Below, piece by piece: positions 7,209-55,258 of a DNA stretch of 64,000 bases. The notes beneath the pieces were generated by a model. It was given only the letters and a program-made list of their open reading frames with translations, did no database searches and had not been told where the DNA came from. Source of the stretch: Escherichia coli (GTDB taxonomy: Bacteria > Pseudomonadota > Gammaproteobacteria > Enterobacterales > Enterobacteriaceae); NCBI RefSeq assembly GCF_041886205.1, contig NZ_CP169029.1, one strand, 5' to 3'. A program made the position numbers and the translations under genes. Numbering within the stretch: the first letter of the stretch is position 1; each line of letters opens with the position of its first letter.

Positions 7209-7392
<184 letters not shown>

Positions 7393-12845: not shown

Positions 12846-15088
<2,243 letters not shown>

Positions 15089-26597: not shown

Positions 26598-26606
26598 AAA
26601 ATAATG

Positions 26607-26640
26607 TCGGATGCGGCGTAAACGCCTTATCCGACTTACT
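26607..26640. repeat. REP element
   Basis: gtcggatgcggcgtaaacgccttatccgac palindrome between the convergent rhtB and rhtC. Confidence 0.8.
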
Positions 26641-33980: not shown

Positions 33981-34745
33981 ATGGCGCATCGGCTACTCAT
34001 TGGTAAAGGAATGATCACCTTGAATCTCAAACGGATTTTTCTCACCCTCACCTTACTTCCCTTGTTTGCTGTTGCCGCTGATGATTGCGCACTCTCAGAT
34101 CCGACGCTGACCGTACAGGCGTATACCGTTAATCCTCAAACAGAGCGGGTGAAAATGTACTGGCAAAAAGCCAATGGCGAAGCGTGGGGAACGTTACATG
34201 CTCTGCTGGCGGATATGAATAGTCAGGGTCAGGTGCAGATGGCGATGAACGGCGGCATCTATGATGAAAGCTATGCGCCGCTCGGTTTGTACATCGAAAA
34301 CGGTCAGCAGAAGGTGGCGTTAAATCTCGCTTCAGGTGAAGGGAATTTCTTTATTCGTCCTGGCGGCGTGTTTTATGTCGCGGGAGATAAAGTCGGCATC
34401 GTTCGTCTGGATGCCTTTAAAGCCAGTAAAGAGATTCAGTTTGCGGTGCAGTCAGGGCCAATGTTGATGGAAAACGGTGTAATTAATCCGCGTATTCATC
34501 CCAACGTCGCCTCACGCAAAATTCGTAACGGTGTTGGGATTAATAAACATGGGAACGCCGTGTTTTTGTTGAGCCAGCAGGCAACAAATTTTTATGATTT
34601 TTCCTGTTATGCCAAAGCGAAACTGAACGTTGAGCAGCTGCTTTATCTTGATGGCACGATTTCACATATGTATATGAAAGGCGGGGCAATCCCGTGGCAA
34701 CGCTATCCTTTTGTCACCATGATTTCCGTCGAGCGGAAAGGTTAG
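33981..34745 (+). CDS. yigE: DUF2233-family protein YigE
   Basis: 254-aa ORF with N-terminal signal/TM segment; K-12 position between corA and uvrD. Confidence 0.88.
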   Translation: MAHRLLIGKGMITLNLKRIFLTLTLLPLFAVAADDCALSDPTLTVQAYTVNPQTERVKMYWQKANGEAWGTLHALLADMNSQGQVQMAMNGGIYDESYAPLGLYIENGQQKVALNLASGEGNFFIRPGGVFYVAGDKVGIVRLDAFKASKEIQFAVQSGPMLMENGVINPRIHPNVASRKIRNGVGINKHGNAVFLLSQQATNFYDFSCYAKAKLNVEQLLYLDGTISHMYMKGGAIPWQRYPFVTMISVERKG

Positions 34746-34784
34746 AATGATAGTTTTGTGTCAGATACTAAATATGCTGCTGAT

Positions 34785-34887
34785 GCCGGAAGCGGCGTAA
34801 ACGCCTTATCCGGCCTACATGACGTTGCAATTTATTGAATCTGAATGATTTTTTAGGCCAAATAAGGTGCGCAGCACCGCATCCGGC
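34785..34887. repeat. BIME/RIP-type element: two inverted REP units flanking an IHF-like core
   Basis: gccggaagcggcgtaaacgccttatccggcctac ... acgttgcaatttattgaat ... ggccaaataaggtgcgcagcaccgcatccggc between the convergent yigE and uvrD. Confidence 0.8.
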
Positions 34888-34891
34888 AACG

Positions 34892-37054
34892 TTACACCGA
34901 CTCCAGCCGGGCGTAAGCTGCCACCAGCCATTTGATTCCCTGGCCCTGGAATGCCACCTGCAAACGGCTATGTTCGCCGCTGCCTTCCATATTGACGATA
35001 GTGCCTTCACCAAACTTAGCGTGGCGTACGCGCTGGCCGAGCTTGTAGCCGCTGTCGTTCTCGACCATCGGCGTACCCATCCGCTGATGGCTAACCGGGC
35101 GGCTTACCGTGGCGCGCAGGCGCACCTCTTCCACACACTCTTCCGGCAGCTCGCCAATAAAGCGCGACGGGCGATGGTAAACTTCTTTGCCATACAGACG
35201 GCGAGTTTCCGCGTAGGTCAGCGTCAGTTTCTGCATCGCGCGGGTTACACCAACGTAGGCCAGACGGCGTTCTTCTTCCAGACGCCCGCCTTCATCCAGC
35301 GACATCTGGCTTGGGAACATGCCCTCTTCCATACCAACGATAAACACCTGAGGAAACTCCAGACCTTTCGCCGAGTGTAGCGTCATCAACTGCACCGCAT
35401 CCTGCCAGGTATCCGCCTGCCCTTCACCTGCTTCCAGTGCCGCATGGGAGAGGAACGCCTGCAGCGGCATTAAATCTTCGTCTTCTTCGTTGTAGCTGAA
35501 CTGGCGCGTTGCCGTCACCAGTTCCTCTAAGTTTTCGATACGCGTCTGACCTTTTTCGCCCTTCTCCTGCTCGTACATGGTGCGCAGGCCGGAGTCTTTA
35601 ATTACCCGGTCAGTCTGTACATGCAGCGGCATATCGGCAGTTTCTTGCGCTAAGGCGTCGATTAATTCCATAAATCGCTGCAAGGCGCTGGCAGCTCGCC
35701 CGGCGAGCGCTTTTTCCTGCAACAGCTCACGACATGCCTGCCAGAGTGTTAACTGGCGATCGCGCGATGTCTGACGTACCACGTCCAGCGTCCGGTCACC
35801 AATACCCCGCGTTGGCGTATTCACCACACGCTCAAAGGCCGCGTCGTCGTTGCGGTTGGCAATCAGGCGCAGATACGAGAGCGCATCTTTGATTTCCTGG
35901 CGTTCGAAGAATCGCATCCCGCCGTAAATACGGTACGGCATACTGGCCTGCAATAACGCCTCTTCCAGTACACGCGACTGGGCGTTGCTGCGGTAGAGAA
36001 TGGCGCACTCGGCAAGCGCCCCGCCGTTGTCCTGCCAGGTTTTGATGCGGTTAACCACAAAACGCGCTTCATCGAGTTCGTTAAAAGCGCAATAGAGGGA
36101 AATAGGCTCACCGTCCGCGCCATCGGTCCACAGTTTTTTACCCAGACGCCCGTTATTGTTTTCAATCAGGGCGTTAGCGGCGCTCAGAATATTGCTGGTA
36201 GAGCGGTAGTTTTGCTCCAGACGAATAGTTTCGGCACCGGGGAAATCATTAAGGAAACGCTGAATATTCTCCACCTGCGCCCCGCGCCAGCCGTAGATTG
36301 ACTGGTCGTCATCACCGACGATCATCACTTTGCCGGTGTCGCCCGCCAGCAGGCGGATCCACGCGTACTGAATGTTGTTGGTATCCTGGAATTCGTCCAC
36401 CAGGATGTTGGTAAAACGTTCGCGGTAGTGTTGCAGGATATGCGGCTTGTTAAGCCACAGTTCGTGGGCGCGCAGCAGCAGCTCGGCGAAGTCCACCAGG
36501 CCCGCGCGGTCACACGCTTCCTGATACGCCTGATACACCTTCTGCCAGGTCTGCTCCACCGGATTACCGTAGCTTTGAATATGATGCGGACGCAGGCCTT
36601 CATCTTTCTGGCTGTTGATGTACCACATTGCCTGGCGCGGCGGCCACTGCTTCTCGTCGAGGTTCATGGCTTTGATCAGACGCTTAAGCAGGCGTAGCTG
36701 GTCTTCACTGTCGAGGATCTGGAAATCCTGCGGCAGATTGGCGTCCATATGGTGCGCACGCAGCAAACGATGCGCCAGCCCGTGGAAGGTGCCGACCCAC
36801 ATGCCGCCCTGGCTGGTGCCCATCAGTTGCCCGATACGATGACGCATTTCCGCCGCCGCTTTGTTGGTAAACGTCACCGCCATAATCGAGTATGGCGAGC
36901 AGTTTTCCACGCTCATCAGCCAGGCGATACGATGCACCAGTACGCGCGTCTTACCACTGCCCGCGCCCGCCAGCACCAGAAGGTTGCTGCGTGGCGCGGC
37001 CACCGCTTCGCGCTGTTTGTCGTTAAGGCTGTCGAGCAGGTAAGAAACGTCCAT
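34892..37054 (-). CDS. uvrD: DNA helicase II UvrD
   Basis: 720-aa product from MDVSYLLDSLNDKQREAVAAPRSNLLVLAGAGSGKT... (Walker A); the ORF-track start at 37243 is an upstream extension. Confidence 0.97.
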   Translation of the reverse strand: MDVSYLLDSLNDKQREAVAAPRSNLLVLAGAGSGKTRVLVHRIAWLMSVENCSPYSIMAVTFTNKAAAEMRHRIGQLMGTSQGGMWVGTFHGLAHRLLRAHHMDANLPQDFQILDSEDQLRLLKRLIKAMNLDEKQWPPRQAMWYINSQKDEGLRPHHIQSYGNPVEQTWQKVYQAYQEACDRAGLVDFAELLLRAHELWLNKPHILQHYRERFTNILVDEFQDTNNIQYAWIRLLAGDTGKVMIVGDDDQSIYGWRGAQVENIQRFLNDFPGAETIRLEQNYRSTSNILSAANALIENNNGRLGKKLWTDGADGEPISLYCAFNELDEARFVVNRIKTWQDNGGALAECAILYRSNAQSRVLEEALLQASMPYRIYGGMRFFERQEIKDALSYLRLIANRNDDAAFERVVNTPTRGIGDRTLDVVRQTSRDRQLTLWQACRELLQEKALAGRAASALQRFMELIDALAQETADMPLHVQTDRVIKDSGLRTMYEQEKGEKGQTRIENLEELVTATRQFSYNEEDEDLMPLQAFLSHAALEAGEGQADTWQDAVQLMTLHSAKGLEFPQVFIVGMEEGMFPSQMSLDEGGRLEEERRLAYVGVTRAMQKLTLTYAETRRLYGKEVYHRPSRFIGELPEECVEEVRLRATVSRPVSHQRMGTPMVENDSGYKLGQRVRHAKFGEGTIVNMEGSGEHSRLQVAFQGQGIKWLVAAYARLESV

Positions 37055-37112
37055 TGGCACCGCCGCGTAAAAATAGGTTGGGCGGAGAAGCGCAACGCCC
37101 TCCGCCAAAAAG

Positions 37113-37128
37113 CTGGGTATATATACAG
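37113..37128. promoter_or_regulatory. LexA (SOS) box in the uvrD promoter
   Basis: Minus-strand CTGTATATATACCCAG, about 60 bp upstream of the uvrD start; matches the known uvrD SOS operator. Confidence 0.85.
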
Positions 37129-37137
37129 ATTTGCTGA

Positions 37138-37854
37138 TTATATCAGCGAGGTCAGAGATGCCAACCGGGAAATTTCCAGATGCGGCAGTAAACGGCTGTC
37201 CCAGGTTTGCATCAGATCGCCATTTTCCGGTCTGATCCAACAAGCCTGCATTCCGCTGCGAATTGCCCCACCCACGTCAGTGGTGAGATCGTCCCCAACA
37301 TGTAAGATCTCGCCGATCGGCACGTTGAGTTTTTCCGCAGCCAGAAAGTACATATCGCTGAACGGTTTTGAGCGCCCGTGCGGGCCAGCGCGCAGCACAA
37401 ACTCAAAATAATCCCCCAAACCAAACAGTTCCGGCTGGGCGTTACCGTTGGTGATCGCCACCAGCGGCCATTTCTTCGCCAGCTGTTTTAAGGTGTCGTG
37501 AGTTTGCTGCGGGACGTCGATTCGGCTGCGCCATTTGGCAAAGTTAATCATTGCTGCGTGTGCGCCTGCACTGGCTTCTTCGGCACTCAGCCCGGCGTCG
37601 AGCATCGCTTGTTCAATCGATCGAAAACGCCAGCGCGTCACATCGTGATAAATCTCGGGTTCCGCTTCCCGTACCGCCTGGCGCAGGCGTTGCAGATCTT
37701 CATTCCGGAAGCTGCGCAGCGCCGGATGATAATTTTGCACAAAGGTAAGCGCCTCTCGCTCGGTGCGCAAAATCACCGGACGGTTATCGTAAAGGGTATC
37801 ATCCAGGTCAAAGGTGAGCGCCGAGATGCGCCCCAAAGGCCGGTAAAAACGCAT
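37138..37854 (-). CDS. yigB: HAD-family phosphatase YigB
   Basis: 238-aa [30 protein letters not shown]... with HAD motif DxDDT. Confidence 0.93.
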
Positions 37855-50981: not shown

Positions 50982-51618
50982 ATGCATAAAAAAACGCCTG
51001 CTCTTATTACGGAGCAGGCGTTAAAACAGGTCTGTATGACAACAAGTGGGTGCTTCACTCAACGTTGTGTCCATGGTGTCTGATGAGGCATAAGCGACAT
51101 CTGTCAGTGGACGATAAGCACCGTAAACGGCTCTGCGTCATTCCGGAGTTTATGAGGCACTAAGGCGAACATAAGAGATAGAATGAGCATCTACTCGTTT
51201 ATTATGCCACAGAGAATCGGGAAATAACATCCCTTAACACTTGTTATGAGATAATTCTGTACCCCTCTTTGCTTCCTGAGTAATAACTTCCTGAGTGAAT
51301 ATTTACCCTGAGCTTGATTCTACACATACTCATTATGAATGATAAAATTCATTCAATTAATAACACATATATTAATTGCTGTTAAAACTAAAAACAGCAT
51401 CAATAATCAACGCGATATAATAAACCTGCCTTACATATCAACTGCGCCAGAGGTAGGATTGAAAATGCTCTCCTGATTTTTAAATTCATTTTTGGGATAA
51501 ATAAATAATTTATTTTTATCACTATTATTTATGCAATCATCCTGTCAGGGAGAGGGATCTCAATTATCAATGCTTAATTACGTCATCATTTTGATGACAT
51601 GAAACCGGAGCATTTTGC

Positions 51619-53274
51619 ATGGAATTTTCGTTTTCACCCAAACTTCTTGTTGTTGCTGTCGCCGCCGCTCTTCCTCTCATGGCCAGCGCAGCTGATACCC
51701 CGTCAACTGCCACCGCACGCAAAGGCTTTGCCGGATACGATCACCCAAACCAGTATCTGGTTAAACCGGCGACCACTATTGCCGACAACATGATGCCAGT
51801 AATGCAGCATCCGGCGCAGGATAAAGAAACCCAGCAGAAGCTGGCAGAACTTGAGAAAAAAACCGGTAAGAAGCCCAACGTAGTGATCTTTCTTCTGGAT
51901 GACGTGGGCTGGATGGACGTCGGCTTTAACGGCGGCGGCGTGGCAGTGGGTAACCCTACACCAGATATCGACGCCGTTGCCAGCCAGGGGCTGATTTTAA
52001 CTTCGGCGTATTCTCAACCAAGCTCTTCCCCAACCCGCGCCACCATTCTCACCGGACAATACTCCATCCACCACGGCATTCTGATGCCGCCAATGTACGG
52101 GCAACCGGGCGGGCTGCATGGGTTAACCACGCTGCCGCAGTTGCTGCACGATCAGGGCTACGTCACTCAGGCCATCGGGAAATGGCATATGGGAGAAAAC
52201 AAAGAGTCGCAGCCGCAGAACGTTGGCTTTGATGATTTCCGTGGCTTTAACTCGGTGTCTGATATGTACACCGAATGGCGCGACGTTCACGTAAACCCGG
52301 AAGTGGCCCTGAGTCCGGACCGTTCTGAATACATCAAGCAATTACCGTTCAGCAAAGATGACGTTCATGCAGTGCGCGGCGGCGAACAACAGGCCATTGC
52401 CGACATTACGCCGAAATATATGGAAGATCTGGATCAACGCTGGATGGACTATGGCGTTAAGTTCCTCGACAAGATGGCGAAGAGCGATAAGCCTTTCTTC
52501 CTCTATTACGGCACTCGCGGCTGTCACTTCGATAACTACCCGAACGCCAAATATGCGGGTAGCTCTCCGGCGCGCACCTCTTACGGCGACTGCATGGTGG
52601 AGATGAACGATGTGTTCGCTAATCTGTATAAAACACTGGAGAAAAACGGTCAGCTTGATAACACGCTGATCGTCTTTACCTCCGATAACGGACCGGAAGC
52701 CGAAGTACCGCCGCACGGACGCACACCGTTCCGTGGTGCGAAAGGTTCGACCTGGGAAGGCGGCGTTCGCGTACCGACTTTCGTTTACTGGAAAGGGATG
52801 ATCCAACCGCGTAAATCTGACGGTATTGTCGATCTGGCAGATCTCTTCCCTACCGCGCTGGATCTGGCAGGGCATCCTGGAGCGAAAGTGGCGAATTTAG
52901 TGCCGAAAACCACCTTTATCGATGGTGTGGACCAGACATCCTTCTTCCTGGGAACAAATGGTCAGTCTAACCGTAAGGCCGAGCACTACTTCCTCAACGG
53001 TAAACTCGCTGCTGTGCGTATGGATGAGTTCAAGTATCACGTCCTGATTCAGCAACCTTACGCTTATACCCAGAGCGGATATCAGGGTGGATTCACCGGC
53101 ACAGTAATGCAAACGGCGGGATCGTCGGTGTTTAACCTGTACACCGATCCGCAGGAAAGCGACTCTATCGGCGTGCGCCATATTCCGATGGGTGTACCGC
53201 TACAGACCGAAATGCACGCATATATGGAGATCCTGAAAAAATATCCACCACGCGCGCAGATTAAATCTGATTAA
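51619..53274 (+). CDS. aslA: Arylsulfatase-family protein AslA
   Basis: 551-aa ORF with signal peptide [24 protein letters not shown] and sulfatase signature region ([17 protein letters not shown]). Confidence 0.93.
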
Positions 53275-53310
53275 GCCGGCGCTATCGCTACATCGGGCCA
53301 CACTGACCTT

Positions 53311-53411
53311 GCCGGATGCGATGCTGACGCATCTTATCCGGCCTACAGAACGTTGCAATTTATTGAATTTGCAAGGATTGTAGGCCGGATAAGGCGTTCA
53401 CGCCGCATCCG
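53311..53411. repeat. BIME/RIP-type element: two inverted REP units flanking an IHF-like core
   Basis: gccggatgcgatgctgacgcatcttatccggcctac ... acgttgcaatttattgaat ... taggccggataaggcgttcacgccgcatccggc between the convergent aslA and aslB; the core is identical to the one at 34821..34839. Confidence 0.8.
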
Positions 53412-53439
53412 GCAATCAACCGCAGGCGGCCGCCGATTT

Positions 53440-54675
53440 CTACTTACTCACCACCAGCAAATGCGCCTGCATAATGTCGCTGGCCGGGCGACCGTGCGCC
53501 AGCAAATCAGCCATTGCTTTAAGATATGGCGGTAGATGGCGGAAATAACGCTGATATCCGGCACACAAATAATTCAGCCCCGGTTTGCCGCTGGCATCGA
53601 GCATGAAGCGGTGTTTCGGGCAGCCTCCCCAACATGCTTTTAACACGTTACAACTGCGACACTGCGCCGGTAACTGCTTAAATTTATCTTCACCAAACAC
53701 CTGCTGTTGCGGGGAATCGATCATTTCTGCAATTGTTTGCTGGTGCATATTCCCCAGCCGATATTGCGGATAAACATAGTGATCGCAGGCGTAAACGTCG
53801 CCGTTGTGCTCAACAATCACCGAGCGCCCACAGGTTGGCTGATGATGGCAAACCGCACCCGGCGCACCGACAAAATTGGCAAACGCCCATTCGATATTCA
53901 TCACGAAAATCTTGCCGACGTCGCGTTTGATCCAGTGGTCGAATATCGCCACCAGAAACTCACCGAACTCCTCGGGGCGCACCGACCATTCCGTTAGCTC
54001 ACCCTGAATATCACCAGGCGCATGTAACTTAAGTCCATCGCGGGCAGCTGTTTCATCAGCCAGGCGCTCGACCACCGGAATAAACTGGATGAATTCGACT
54101 CCCACATCGCACAAAAAATCATATACCTGCAACGGTTGCTGCGCGCTGGTGCGATTAACGCAGACCAGCACGTTATAGTCGACATGATGCTTTTGCAGCA
54201 GCTTCAAGGCACGCATCACCAGTTTATGCGTGGGTCTGCCGCCTTTGGTCACGCGATATTGATTGTGGATCTCAGCCGGACCATCCAGCGATAACCCAAC
54301 AAGAAAATGATTTTCTGCCAGAAATGCACACCATTCATCATCGAGCAGCACGCCGTTAGTCTGGAAGCTGTTACTTATCTTCCTGCCAGCACCATATTTC
54401 GCCTGTAGCGCCACGGCACGGCGGTAAAAATCCAGCCCGAGTAACGTTGGTTCGCCGCCCTGCCAGGTAAAAGCCACTTCGTTTTGGGTTTCGCTGGCGG
54501 CGATATAGTGACGGACATACGCTTCCAGCGTGTCATCGTCCATATGCGTGACTGGCTTTTCGCGGTAAATGGATTGTTTTTCGAGATAAAAACAGTAGTC
54601 ACAGTTCAGATTACAATCGGAACCGCTCGGTTTCGCCATCACATGAAAAGCACGCGTTGGAATCTGTTGCAGCAT
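53440..54675 (-). CDS. aslB: Anaerobic sulfatase-maturating enzyme homolog AslB (radical SAM)
   Basis: 411-aa product from MLQQIPTRAFHVMAKPSGSDCNLNCDYCFY... (CxxxCxxC radical-SAM motif); the ORF-track start at 54705 is an upstream extension. Confidence 0.92.
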   Translation of the reverse strand: MLQQIPTRAFHVMAKPSGSDCNLNCDYCFYLEKQSIYREKPVTHMDDDTLEAYVRHYIAASETQNEVAFTWQGGEPTLLGLDFYRRAVALQAKYGAGRKISNSFQTNGVLLDDEWCAFLAENHFLVGLSLDGPAEIHNQYRVTKGGRPTHKLVMRALKLLQKHHVDYNVLVCVNRTSAQQPLQVYDFLCDVGVEFIQFIPVVERLADETAARDGLKLHAPGDIQGELTEWSVRPEEFGEFLVAIFDHWIKRDVGKIFVMNIEWAFANFVGAPGAVCHHQPTCGRSVIVEHNGDVYACDHYVYPQYRLGNMHQQTIAEMIDSPQQQVFGEDKFKQLPAQCRSCNVLKACWGGCPKHRFMLDASGKPGLNYLCAGYQRYFRHLPPYLKAMADLLAHGRPASDIMQAHLLVVSK

Positions 54676-54791
54676 GGTCGCTCCTTGCCTGAAGTCATCC
54701 TTCAATACGTTAAGGGCGAAATCATACCGTGGGACAATGAGTTATTACGGGCGTTTATTGCGAAGGGAGAGTGACGAAATGCACAGAAAAC

Positions 54792-54821: not shown

Positions 54822-54898
54822 TGGTCGGCGAGAGAGGATTCGAACCTCCGACCCACTGGTCCCAAACCAGTTGCGCTACCAAGCTGCGCTACTCGCCG
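54822..54898 (-). tRNA. proM: tRNA-Pro (anticodon UGG)
   Basis: Reverse complement reads CGGCGAGTAGCGCAGCTTGGTAGCGCAACTGGTTTGGGACCAGTGGGTCGGAGGTTCGAATCCTCTCTCGCCGACCA. Confidence 0.97.
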
Positions 54899-54940
54899 AA
54901 ATACTGCTTTTTGAATTTTTAGTTCAATTCTTTAAAGTCG

Positions 54941-55027
54941 TGGTGCGAGGGGGGGGACTTGAACCCCCACGTCCGTAAGGACACTAACACCTGAAGCTAG
55001 CGCGTCTACCAATTCCGCCACCTTCGC
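54941..55027 (-). tRNA. leuT: tRNA-Leu (anticodon CAG)
   Basis: Reverse complement reads GCGAAGGTGGCGGAATTGGTAGACGCGCTAGCTTCAGGTGTTAGTGTCCTTACGGACGTGGGGGTTCAAGTCCCCCCCCTCGCACCA (87 nt, long variable arm). Confidence 0.97.
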
Positions 55028-55047
55028 ATTGTCACAACTTCTAATAA

Positions 55048-55124
55048 TGGGGTGGCTAATGGGATTCGAACCCACGACAACTGGAATCACAATCCAGGGC
55101 TCTACCAACTGAGCTATAGCCACC
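55048..55124 (-). tRNA. hisR: tRNA-His (anticodon GUG)
   Basis: Reverse complement reads GGTGGCTATAGCTCAGTTGGTAGAGCCCTGGATTGTGATTCCAGTTGTCGTGGGTTCGAATCCCATTAGCCACCCCA, including the extra 5' G. Confidence 0.97.
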
Positions 55125-55181
55125 ACTACAAATCTTGTTACGCGGTATTACTACCACCGCAGCTCAAGCGCCGGGACTAAA

Positions 55182-55258
<77 letters not shown>

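What the first reader, a model, noticed from the sequence alone, without database searches (positions are those of the whole stretch)
34785..34887. Two BIME/RIP-type elements share an identical 19-bp core (this locus and 53311..53411)
Both convergent-gene junctions (yigE/uvrD and aslA/aslB) carry inverted REP pairs flanking the same central sequence acgttgcaatttattgaat, which resembles an IHF-binding core as found in RIP elements. These may act as terminators or mRNA stabilisers and as IHF or gyrase binding sites, and they are recombination hotspots.
Basis: partly seen in the sequence, partly recalled or inferred. Interest (0 to 1): 0.22.

Follow-up and report, generated by a model that had tools for sequence, protein, structure and literature searches.

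The report
Two known REP–IHF-site–REP repeat elements
Both sites are copies of a long-known E. coli intergenic repeat (two inverted REP hairpins around a conserved binding site for the DNA-bending protein IHF), so the finding is correct but ordinary; the only mildly new thing is that one copy has flipped orientation in place during E. coli evolution.

Summary
ACGTTGCAATTTATTGAAT occurs exactly twice in the window, at 34822-34840 and 53350-53368. Each copy sits in a ~105-bp element made of two inverted REPs around a 33-34-nt linker, between the convergent genes yigE/uvrD and aslA/aslB.

These are members of the known L-motif BIME family of E. coli, also called BIME-1, RIP or RIB. Its linker carries a published IHF site. 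I collected 125 relatives from other Escherichia, Pseudocitrobacter and Citrobacter genomes, and E. coli genomes carry at least ~31 linker copies (median).

- Fifteen of the 19 shared bases are the family's conserved core (ATTCAATA[A/T]ATTGCA on the minus strand).
- In K-12 and five other strain alleles read, the aslA/aslB copy differs at one base, so exact 19-bp identity is a haplotype quirk.
- Both copies are atypical: neither has the Z1 REP or the conserved outer flanks of the canonical element.
- Gyrase binding is published for BIME-2 and atypical BIMEs, not for BIME-1.
- IHF occupancy at these two loci could not be checked.

Both loci are highly polymorphic. The aslA/aslB element is inverted in place relative to E. 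albertii and about 50 E. coli genomes.

Verdict: already known, low interest.

The parts
34784..34818 (-). Locus A, REP next to yigE. It is a Y-type 35-nt REP reading GTAGGCCGGATAAGGCGTTTACGCCGCTTCCGGCA on the minus strand. In the family's canonical orientation it occupies the position where Z1 normally sits.
   Evidence: REP regex hit; typed Y rather than Z1; inverted-repeat arms.
34819..34852 (-). Locus A linker (L motif), 34 nt. On the minus strand it reads AAAATCATTCAG ATTCAATAAATTGCA ACGTCAT.
   Evidence: Sequence. Its spacing (12 nt, 15-nt core, 7 nt) fits the family, where 12 nt occurs in 97/125 members and 8 or 7 nt in 109 and 12 of 125.
34828..34840 (-). Locus A predicted IHF core ATTCAATAAATTG, one mismatch to WATCAANNNNTTR. 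The 19-mer shared with locus B is 34822-34840 on the + strand.
34849..34854 (-). Locus A A6 tract (T6 on the + strand), ending 8 nt upstream of the IHF core. This is the arrangement described for A-tract-containing IHF sites such as lambda H'.
   Evidence: Sequence. Four or more A's at this position occur in 81/125 family members. The role of the A-tract is described in bioRxiv 10.1101/382655. The 8-nt spacing in H' is from memory.
34853..34888 (+). Locus A degenerate REP-like arm next to uvrD: TTAGGCCAAATAAGGTGCGCAGCACCGCATCCGGCA, with TTAG in place of GTAG. It ends 3 nt from the uvrD stop codon (34892-34894). Its outer 26 nt are shared with the single hairpin found in strains that lack the element.
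53310..53346 (-). Locus B, REP next to aslA. It is 37 nt and reads GTAGGCCGGATAAGATGCGTCAGCATCGCATCCGGCA on the minus strand. It has Z2-like length but CCGGAT-type arms, so it is not Z1.
53347..53379 (-). Locus B linker (L motif), 33 nt. On the minus strand it reads AATCCTTGCAA ATTCAATAAATTGCA ACGTTCT. It has no A-tract.
53356..53368 (-). Locus B predicted IHF core ATTCAATAAATTG. The shared 19-mer is 53350-53368 on the + strand.
53380..53414 (+). Locus B, REP next to aslB. It is a consensus Y-type 35-nt REP: GTAGGCCGGATAAGGCGTTCACGCCGCATCCGGCA.
   Evidence: It matches the published E. coli REP consensus (PMC2817692 Table 1; PMC12306157).
53309..53415 (.). The whole locus B element, bounded by the 12-bp terminal inverted repeat TTGCCGGATGCG / CGCATCCGGCAA. 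This is the segment found inverted in E. albertii, E69 and about 50 E. coli genomes.

Best explanation
Both loci are single-unit members of the E. coli L-motif BIME family (BIME-1, RIP or RIB): two inverted REP palindromes separated by the conserved ~35-bp L linker.

On DNA, the L linker is most likely bound by one IHF heterodimer. The predicted core is ATTCAATAAATTG on the minus strand, and locus A also has an A6 tract 8 nt upstream. IHF binding would bend the linker sharply and bring the two REPs together.

On RNA, transcripts from either convergent gene that read into the element fold the two REP arms into one ~100-nt hairpin. This would block 3'-to-5' exonucleases and may attenuate read-through into the opposing gene.

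The shared 19-mer is the family-conserved IHF core plus four neighbouring bases. It is not a sign of a special link between the two loci.

Shown here: the anatomy, family membership of the linker, copy number, the RNA fold and the polymorphism. Inferred from literature on the family: IHF binding, bending, and mRNA protection or attenuation.
For: - The 19-mer is unique to these two sites, and the elements align at 83%.
- A pattern scan recovered 132 matches, of which 125 are used as family members. Their architecture is Y-REP, 12 nt, ATTCAATA[A/T]ATTGCA, 8 nt, Z1-REP. Y is on the left in 113/125 and Z1 on the right in 116/125. The window loci share the core and have spacings of 11-12 and 7 nt.
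- REP-pair linker length is tightly constrained to 33-36 nt in 140 of 148 pairs. The window loci have 33 and 34 nt.
- The 49-nt consensus linker hits 5,425 of 5,426 E. coli genomes at a median of 31 places, which is a lower bound.
[quoted passage not shown] The inter-REP sequence of BIME-1 interacts with IHF (PMC2817692). RIP elements are REP elements with an IHF site (PMC2892488).
- The core matches WATCAANNNNTTR with one mismatch at both loci. The A/T variant position falls in the NNNN part.
- RNA folds give -47.4 to -78.8 kcal/mol, with z-scores of -3.4 to -8.3, on all four strands.
- Both elements sit at the 3' ends of convergent genes, which is the location named in the title of the RIB paper.
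- The locus B element is at the orthologous site in E. albertii, so it is old.
Against: - IHF binding at these two copies was not tested. A one-mismatch consensus match is common by chance: 55 hits in the window against 47 expected.
- Locus B lacks the A-tract.
- Neither copy has the Z1 REP or the A/B flanks of the canonical element, so they are not textbook BIME-1.
- The elements are dispensable. About 45% of E. coli genomes lack the yigE/uvrD element, and about 26% have lost the linker at aslA/aslB. This argues against an important locus-specific function.
- The original IHF-binding papers (Boccard & Prentki 1993; Oppenheim et al. 1993) could not be read.
Confidence: 0.85

Rival explanations
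1. The elements are essentially selfish, non-autonomous mobile DNA. They would be REP doublets spread by the REP-associated Y1 transposase, with no host function at these two sites, and the IHF site would be a relic or a host factor used by the element itself.
For: - Dispersed in tens of copies per genome.
- Canonical members carry conserved outer flanks like a MITE: the A flank in 89/125 and the B flank in 86/125.
- Presence/absence polymorphism at both loci.
- TnpA(REP) cleaves and recombines BIMEs in vitro (PMC3333891).
- BIMEs have been proposed as non-autonomous transposable elements (PMC2817692).
Against: - This does not exclude the best explanation: a mobile origin and IHF binding or RNA effects can coexist.
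- The locus B element has been kept at the same site since before the E. coli / E. albertii split.
- These two copies lack the A/B flanks.
Confidence: 0.4
2. The two loci share the 19-mer because one was recently copied from the other, or because of gene conversion between them, 18.5 kb apart.
For: Both loci share three minority features:
- the AATAAAT core variant (21 of 136 matches);
- a 7-nt right spacer (12 of 125 family members);
- an ACGT tail seen in no independent paralogue (the only other case, L072, is an E. coli yigE/uvrD contaminant contig).
Against: - The REPs on either side differ in type and length, and the left halves of the linkers are unrelated (AAAATCATTCAG against AATCCTTGCAA).
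- In K-12, E69 and E. albertii, locus B has GCGT rather than ACGT, so the fourth shared base is a recent single change in the window haplotype.
- Locus B predates E. coli, whereas locus A is present in only ~55% of strains.
Confidence: 0.08
3. The elements act mainly as bidirectional intrinsic (Rho-independent) terminators for the convergent gene pairs.
For: Very stable hairpins form on both strands. There is one weak terminator-like hit at 34878-34866 on the minus strand, downstream of uvrD.
Against: - No U-run follows the long hairpins, and there is no hit at locus B.
- In many strains a separate classical terminator-like hairpin (GGCGGCCACAAAATGGCCGCTTTT) lies beyond the aslA/aslB element.
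- The literature describes REP effects as Rho-dependent attenuation and mRNA stabilisation (PMC2817692, PMC3333891).
Confidence: 0.1
4. The elements are preferred DNA gyrase sites.
For: REPs in general bind gyrase (cited in PMC6379681). 'Atypical' BIMEs are said to bind gyrase (PMC2817692).
Against: - Genome-wide cleavage mapping finds enrichment in BIME-2 (Y-S-Z2 tandem arrays), and gyrase sites are slightly under-represented at IHF sites (PMC6379681).
- These loci are single units with the long L linker, not the short S linker.
Confidence: 0.08

Closest known systems
BIME-1 (Bachellier/Gilson/Hofnung classification): Y REP - L linker - Z1 REP, single copy
   Same: - Single-unit element with two inverted REPs.
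- Homologous L linker with the same core and near-identical spacing.
- At least one Y-type REP.
- Intergenic position at gene 3' ends.
   Different: - The REP on the TTG side of the core is not Z1. It is a Y-type 35-mer at locus A and a 37-nt CCGGAT-type REP at locus B.
- The other arm of locus A is degenerate (TTAG in place of GTAG).
- The conserved outer flanks seen in about 70% of canonical members are absent.
- The right spacer is 7 nt rather than 8.

Strictly, both copies fall in the 'atypical BIME' bin, meaning chimeras of Y/Z/L motifs.
RIP (repetitive IHF-binding palindromic) / RIB (reiterative IHF BIME) elements: Oppenheim, Rudd et al. 1993; Boccard & Prentki 1993
   Same: [quoted passage not shown] The IHF core is identical to the family core at every consensus position.
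   Different: IHF binding to these two copies was not verified here. Locus B lacks the A-tract that most family members carry.
BIME-2 (Y - S - Z2 tandem arrays; gyrase targets; source of naRNA4)
   Same: Built from the same REP repertoire. One such array is in this window at 7209-7391.
   Different: BIME-2 has a short ~15-nt S linker without an IHF core, is tandemly repeated, and binds gyrase. The two loci of the finding are single units with the L linker.
Phage lambda H' IHF site
   Same: The locus A linker has an A6 tract, an 8-nt spacer, then a WATCAA-like core and TTG. This is the same layout as H' (layout recalled from memory; the consensus and the A-tract role are in bioRxiv 10.1101/382655).
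   Different: One mismatch in the WATCAA hexamer (ATTCAA). The context is a chromosomal repeat, not a recombination site.

Membership tests
RIP / RIB (REP-IHF-REP) elements | Two REP palindromes in inverted orientation flanking a central non-REP segment | tested here: met
   Inverted arms are 86-100% complementary at both loci. The uvrD-side arm of locus A is degenerate.
RIP / RIB (REP-IHF-REP) elements | Central segment homologous to the family's conserved L / IHF-site sequence | tested here: met
   The 15-nt core ATTCAATAAATTGCA matches the scan pattern ATTCAATA[A/T]ATTGCA that recovered the 125 relatives, and the spacings are 11-12 and 7 nt. Linker length of 33-34 nt falls within the family's 33-36 nt.
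RIP / RIB (REP-IHF-REP) elements | Match to the IHF consensus WATCAANNNNTTR | tested here: inconclusive
   There is one mismatch at both loci, the same as in the canonical family core. One-mismatch matches are as frequent as chance in the window (55 against 47 expected).
RIP / RIB (REP-IHF-REP) elements | Specific binding of IHF in vitro or in vivo | not testable with these tools
   No ChIP peak tables or supplements were held for PMC3333857 or PMC8407004.
RIP / RIB (REP-IHF-REP) elements | [quoted passage not shown] | tested here: met
   Both lie between the stop codons of convergent genes.
BIME-1 sensu stricto | One Y REP and one Z1 REP (30-nt, CCTGAT type) | tested here: not met
   Y is present at both loci, but neither has Z1. 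Locus A has a degenerate arm plus Y, and locus B has Y plus a 37-nt CCGGAT-type REP. In 116 of 125 relatives the REP in that position is Z1.
BIME-1 sensu stricto | Long conserved L linker; occurs as a single unit rather than a tandem array | tested here: met
   only one REP pair at each locus.
BIME-1 sensu stricto | Conserved outer flanks (GTTGACAAAGTGCGCTTTGTTCA ... ATTTTGCGTTTGTCATCAGTCT), seen empirically in the family here | tested here: not met
   Present in 89 and 86 of 125 relatives. Absent at both window loci with up to 6 errors allowed.
BIME-2 | Y and Z2 REPs with a short S linker, tandemly repeated | tested here: not met
   Linkers are 33-34 nt with the L core, and the elements are single units. 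A true BIME-2-like array lies elsewhere in the window at 7209-7391.
Intrinsic terminator | GC-rich hairpin followed directly by a U-run | tested here: not met
   Locus B has no hit, and locus A has one weak 5-bp stem.

The most novel reading that the evidence does not exclude
The aslA/aslB element behaves as an evolutionarily invertible segment. Its whole 107-bp interior has flipped in place between its own 12-bp terminal inverted repeats. Each of the two linker haplotypes occurs in both orientations, which suggests the flip has happened more than once.

If such flips are a general, previously undescribed property of REP doublets, they would be a new source of intergenic variation. They would swap which REP type and which face of the asymmetric IHF bend points at each gene. 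The mechanism could be hairpin-mediated template switching or recombination between the arms.

The flip itself is well supported. That it is recurrent, general and not already described in papers I could not read (for example Bachellier et al. 1997, Genetics) is uncertain.
Probability: 0.3. Interest if true: 0.35.

Novelty: already known. Interest (0 to 1): 0.15.

Why it matters
As stated, the finding matters little. L-motif BIMEs (RIP/RIB elements) have been known since 1991-1993, and the same two elements are present in E. coli K-12.

The analysis is useful mainly as a correct annotation of two intergenic regions. It also warns that the identical 19-mer is a family core, not evidence of a link between the loci.

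The strain comparison adds modest value. Both junctions are hotspots of structural polymorphism, and every breakpoint lies inside a REP. One element has been inverted in place. This illustrates how REP doublets reshape 3' intergenic regions.

Tried and rejected
- **Chance:** rejected. Two exact hits against 0.01 expected.
- **Promoter in the linker:** no sigma-70-like site at either locus.
- **Known RNA family:** Rfam at gathering threshold has no hit at either locus.
- **Recent duplication between the loci:** rejected because the REP types, left linker halves and outgroup states differ.
- **Remnant of the SAM_HAT gene in the K-12-type yigE/uvrD spacer**, which would have given the direction of the gene/BIME replacement: no significant similarity. 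The score was 17 against a shuffle mean of 15.7, and only the 26 nt next to the uvrD stop are shared.
- **Orientation polymorphism at yigE/uvrD:** a synthetic flipped query found no genome above 87.6% identity.
- **Locus-level IHF ChIP evidence:** none available. No supplements are held for PMC3333857 and PMC4550694, and there were no hits in the supplements of PMC12306157 or the text of PMC8407004.
- **Original papers:** Boccard & Prentki 1993, Gilson 1991, Bachellier 1997 and Clément 1999 are not held.
- **Feature annotation:** the RefSeq K-12 feature table returned no repeat features for these regions.
- **Literature on REPIN/BIME inversion:** nothing relevant found.

Full report
**1. Observation**

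The 19-mer ACGTTGCAATTTATTGAAT occurs on the + strand at 34822-34840 and 53350-53368. It occurs nowhere else in the window, even with three mismatches allowed, against 0.01 expected from shuffles.

Each copy lies in the spacer between convergent ORFs:
- 33981-34745(+) and 34892-37243(-)
- 51619-53274(+) and 53440-54705(-)

Near-identical E. coli genomes annotate these as yigE/uvrD and aslA/aslB. The window is E. coli but not K-12. The best matches are strains LHM10-1 and MB53 at 100%, and K-12-like strains are about 97%.

Inverted-repeat arms flank both cores, and the two elements align at 83% mean column identity over 135 alignment columns.

**2. Anatomy**

Read on the minus strand, which turned out to be the family's canonical orientation:

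- **Locus B** (53415 to 53309): TTGCCGGATGCGGCGTGAACGCCTTATCCGGCCTAC | AATCCTTGCAA ATTCAATAAATTGCA ACGTTCT | GTAGGCCGGATAAGATGCGTCAGCATCGCATCCGGCAA. This is a consensus 35-nt REP, a 33-nt linker, then a 37-nt REP.
- **Locus A** (34888 to 34784): TGCCGGATGCGGTGCTGCGCACCTTATTTGGCCTAA | AAAATCATTCAG ATTCAATAAATTGCA ACGTCAT | GTAGGCCGGATAAGGCGTTTACGCCGCTTCCGGCA. This is a degenerate REP-like arm lacking GTAG, a 34-nt linker, then a 35-nt REP.

Only eight recognisable REPs exist in the 64 kb:
- the three well-formed REPs of these two elements;
- a four-REP array with short linkers at 7209-7391;
- a solitary REP at 26606-26639.

**3. Family**

I scanned one genome per bacterial species for ATTCAATAWATTGCA, then 2-14 nt, then GTAGG.

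- The hits came from E. albertii (23 matches), other Escherichia species representatives, three Pseudocitrobacter genomes (13-15 each in the two listed in full) and a Citrobacter MAG.
- Some hits were E. coli-like contaminant contigs, and a few (L029, L031) were unrelated chance matches.
- The 125 bona fide members share one architecture.
  - A Y REP (GCCGGATGCGGCGTGAACGCCTTATCCGGCCTAC) lies on the left in 113.
  - 12 nt, usually AAAATCGTGCAA, precede the core in 97.
  - The core is followed by 8 nt in 109 and 7 nt in 12.
  - A 30-nt Z1 REP (GTAGGCCTGATAAGCGTAGCGCATCAGGCA) lies on the right in 116.
  - Conserved outer flanks are present in 89 and 86.
- REP pairs in these loci have linkers of 33-36 nt in 140 of 148 cases.
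- A 49-nt consensus linker finds 5,425 of 5,426 complete E. coli genomes, with a median of 31 places per genome.

This is the element the literature calls BIME-1. [quoted passage not shown] Nunvar et al. state that the BIME-1 inter-REP sequence interacts with IHF (PMC2817692). Darling et al. describe RIP elements as REP elements containing an IHF site, sitting in hypervariable intergenic regions (PMC2892488).

**4. Where the two loci fit**

Their linkers are clear homologues of L. Their REP make-up is not canonical:
- neither has Z1;
- neither has the outer flanks;
- both have the 7-nt right spacer;
- both have the minority AATAAAT core variant, seen in 21 of 136 matches.

By the strict Y-L-Z1 definition they fail one defining feature and belong with 'atypical' BIMEs. 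By the REP-IHF-REP (RIP) definition they qualify on sequence.

**5. Meaning of the 19-mer**

Fifteen of the 19 bases are the family core. The remaining four (ACGT on the + strand) are shared with no independent paralogue in the sample. The only other copy of that tail, L072, is an E. coli yigE/uvrD contig inside a MAG.

In K-12, O157:H7, GPEC1292, PSS-08-1, CE0032f and E69, locus B reads ACGCTGC. The outgroup E. albertii has the same base at that position. The exact 19-bp identity is therefore a single recent substitution in the window's haplotype on top of family conservation.

The left linker halves and the flanking REPs differ between the loci. A copy or conversion event between them is unlikely.

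**6. IHF site**

Both cores match WATCAANNNNTTR with one mismatch (ATTCAA for WATCAA), at 34828-34840(-) and 53356-53368(-). The consensus is cited in, for example, bioRxiv 10.1101/382655 and PMC10380432.

- The canonical family core has the same mismatch.
- The A/T difference between these loci and the family majority lies in the NNNN positions.
- On its own a one-mismatch match is uninformative: 55 found against 47 expected.
- The weight of the argument therefore rests on homology to a family for which IHF binding is published.
- Locus A also has an A6 tract ending 8 nt upstream of the core, and 81 of 125 relatives have at least four A's there.
- A-tracts in the other half-site help IHF clamp the bend.
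- Locus B has no A-tract.

Occupancy at these loci could not be checked.

**7. RNA level**

All four transcripts (both strands, both loci) fold the two REP arms onto each other as one long hairpin with the linker as loop.

| Locus | Strand | MFE (kcal/mol) | z-score |
|---|---|---|---|
| A | + | -47.4 | -3.4 |
| A | - | -52.4 | -5.1 |
| B | + | -76.8 | -8.3 |
| B | - | -78.8 | -6.7 |

- No promoter-like site is present, and essentially no intrinsic-terminator signature.
- The likely RNA roles are those reported for REPs: 3' protection of mRNA and Rho-dependent attenuation (summarised in PMC3333891, PMC2817692 and PMC12306157).
- The uvrD-side stem starts 3 nt after the uvrD stop codon.
- REPs this close to a stop codon are reported to stall terminating ribosomes (cited in PMC12306157; the distance rule is from memory).

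**8. Gyrase**

Genome-wide cleavage mapping finds gyrase enriched in BIME-2, and slightly depleted at IHF sites (PMC6379681).

**9. Polymorphism**

*yigE/uvrD*
- 3,010 of 5,426 genomes carry the element, and it is 98% identical in five sampled alleles.
- The three sampled genomes without it (two of them O157:H7 and MS10858) have a 903-bp gene for a SAM hydroxide adenosyltransferase family protein instead (PF01887 / PF20257).
- Those genomes also have a single hairpin, GCCGGATGCGGTGTGGCGCACCGCATCCCGC, next to the uvrD stop.
- Only the 26 nt next to uvrD are shared between the two allele types.
- The direction of this replacement is unresolved.

*aslA/aslB*
- About 2,250 genomes have a full element.
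- About 1,400 have a single hairpin. The deletion junctions lie at the short direct repeats CGCATC or ATCCGGC inside the REPs.
- About 1,760 have lost nearly all of aslA. That deletion ends exactly at the CTAC of the aslA-side REP and leaves the linker and the other REP.
- These counts are derived from the coverage classes.

Every breakpoint is inside a REP, which supports the 'recombination hotspot' remark.

**10. In-place inversion (noticed in passing)**

The aslA/aslB element is present at the orthologous site in E. albertii and in the species representative E69. With the flanks in the same orientation, its interior is reverse-complemented relative to the window and K-12.
- Identity to the window element is 0.76-0.78 on the same strand and 0.92-0.97 after reverse-complementing.
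- The 12-bp terminal inverted repeats and the outside flanks are unchanged.
- Within E. coli proper, the 50 best-matching genomes carry the E. albertii orientation at 92-96% identity over the whole query. These include the O145:H28 lineage and EC42405, and two of them were confirmed by reading the sequence (EC42405, O145:H28 RM12581).
- Identity then drops sharply to 85% for all others.
- Two linker haplotypes, 'ATCGTG' and 'CCTTG', each occur in both orientations.
- The window shares its left-flank haplotype with the forward-oriented EC42405.

This suggests more than one flip, or a flip plus recombination.

A synthetic flipped version of locus A finds nothing above 87.6%, so that locus is not polymorphic for orientation. 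Among canonical family members in other species, 5 of 54 orthologous pairs differ in orientation. Two of the three flip groups aligned (covering 4 of the 5 pairs) have different element boundaries and may be re-insertions; the third (L065/L085) did not look orthologous on alignment. I found no description of such flips in the searchable literature.

**11. Verdict**

The elements belong to a family described over thirty years ago and are present in K-12, so the finding is already known and of low interest. The atypical REP composition, the REP-bounded indels and the in-place inversion are small additions that do not change the classification.

Noticed in passing
window 53309-53415; L022 9254-9407; L075 7610-7783; L135; L136: The aslA/aslB element is inverted in place, between its 12-bp terminal inverted repeats TTGCCGGATGCG / CGCATCCGGCAA, relative to E. 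albertii, E69 and about 50 E. coli genomes (for example the O145:H28 lineage and EC42405). Both linker haplotypes occur in both orientations, which suggests more than one flip.
   Followed up: partly
window 34746-34891; L003 577-1523, L004, L005: The three sampled genomes that lack the yigE/uvrD element carry a 903-bp SAM hydroxide adenosyltransferase family gene (PF01887 / PF20257) and a single hairpin next to the uvrD stop; by coverage class about 45% of E. coli genomes lack the element. Only 26 nt next to uvrD are shared between the two alleles. Which state is ancestral is unresolved.
   Followed up: partly
window 51619-53346; L006 1361-1605: About a third of E. coli genomes have lost nearly all of aslA, leaving a 138-bp N-terminal pseudogene. 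The deletion ends exactly at the CTAC end of the aslA-side REP and leaves the IHF linker and the aslB-side REP.
   Followed up: partly
window 53309-53415; L130 376-476, L131 376-465: About a quarter of genomes have the aslA/aslB element collapsed to a single hairpin. In isolate 538 the two outer REP halves are joined at the direct repeat CGCATC. In CFSAN061768 a single Y REP is left, with the junction at ATCCGGC.
   Followed up: partly
window 53416-53439: The window, K-12, GPEC1292 and O145 read GGCGGCCGCCGATTT between the element and the aslB stop. O157, PSS-08-1, E69 and others have GGCGGCCACAAAATGGCCGCTTTT, a classical terminator-like hairpin with a T-run for aslA-direction transcripts. The window allele appears to have lost the loop.
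   Followed up: no
window 7209-7391: A four-REP array of alternating Y-type and Z2-type REPs with short linkers, which is BIME-2-like. The Rfam family naRNA4 (RF02564) hits 7261-7338(-) at 91 bits.
   Followed up: no
window 34889-34894: The uvrD-side hairpin begins 3 nt after the uvrD stop codon, in both the BIME-bearing and the gene-bearing alleles. REPs this close to stop codons are reported to stall terminating ribosomes, so uvrD expression might be affected.
   Followed up: no
window 14483-14734, 50988-51194, 54825-55258, 26606-26639: Other RNA and repeat features: Erse sRNA (RF02757, 313 bits), GlmZ (216 bits), a four-tRNA cluster downstream of aslB (Arg-His-Leu-Pro in K-12), and a solitary REP at 26606-26639.
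   Followed up: no
L030, L032, L072, L081-L085: E. coli-type RIP elements appear on short contigs of MAGs or assemblies labelled Bacteroides, Alistipes, Collinsella, Desulfosporosinus, Methylobacterium and Alkalicoccobacillus. L072 is 94-99% identical to the E. coli yigE/uvrD locus. These are almost certainly enterobacterial contamination of those assemblies.
   Followed up: partly
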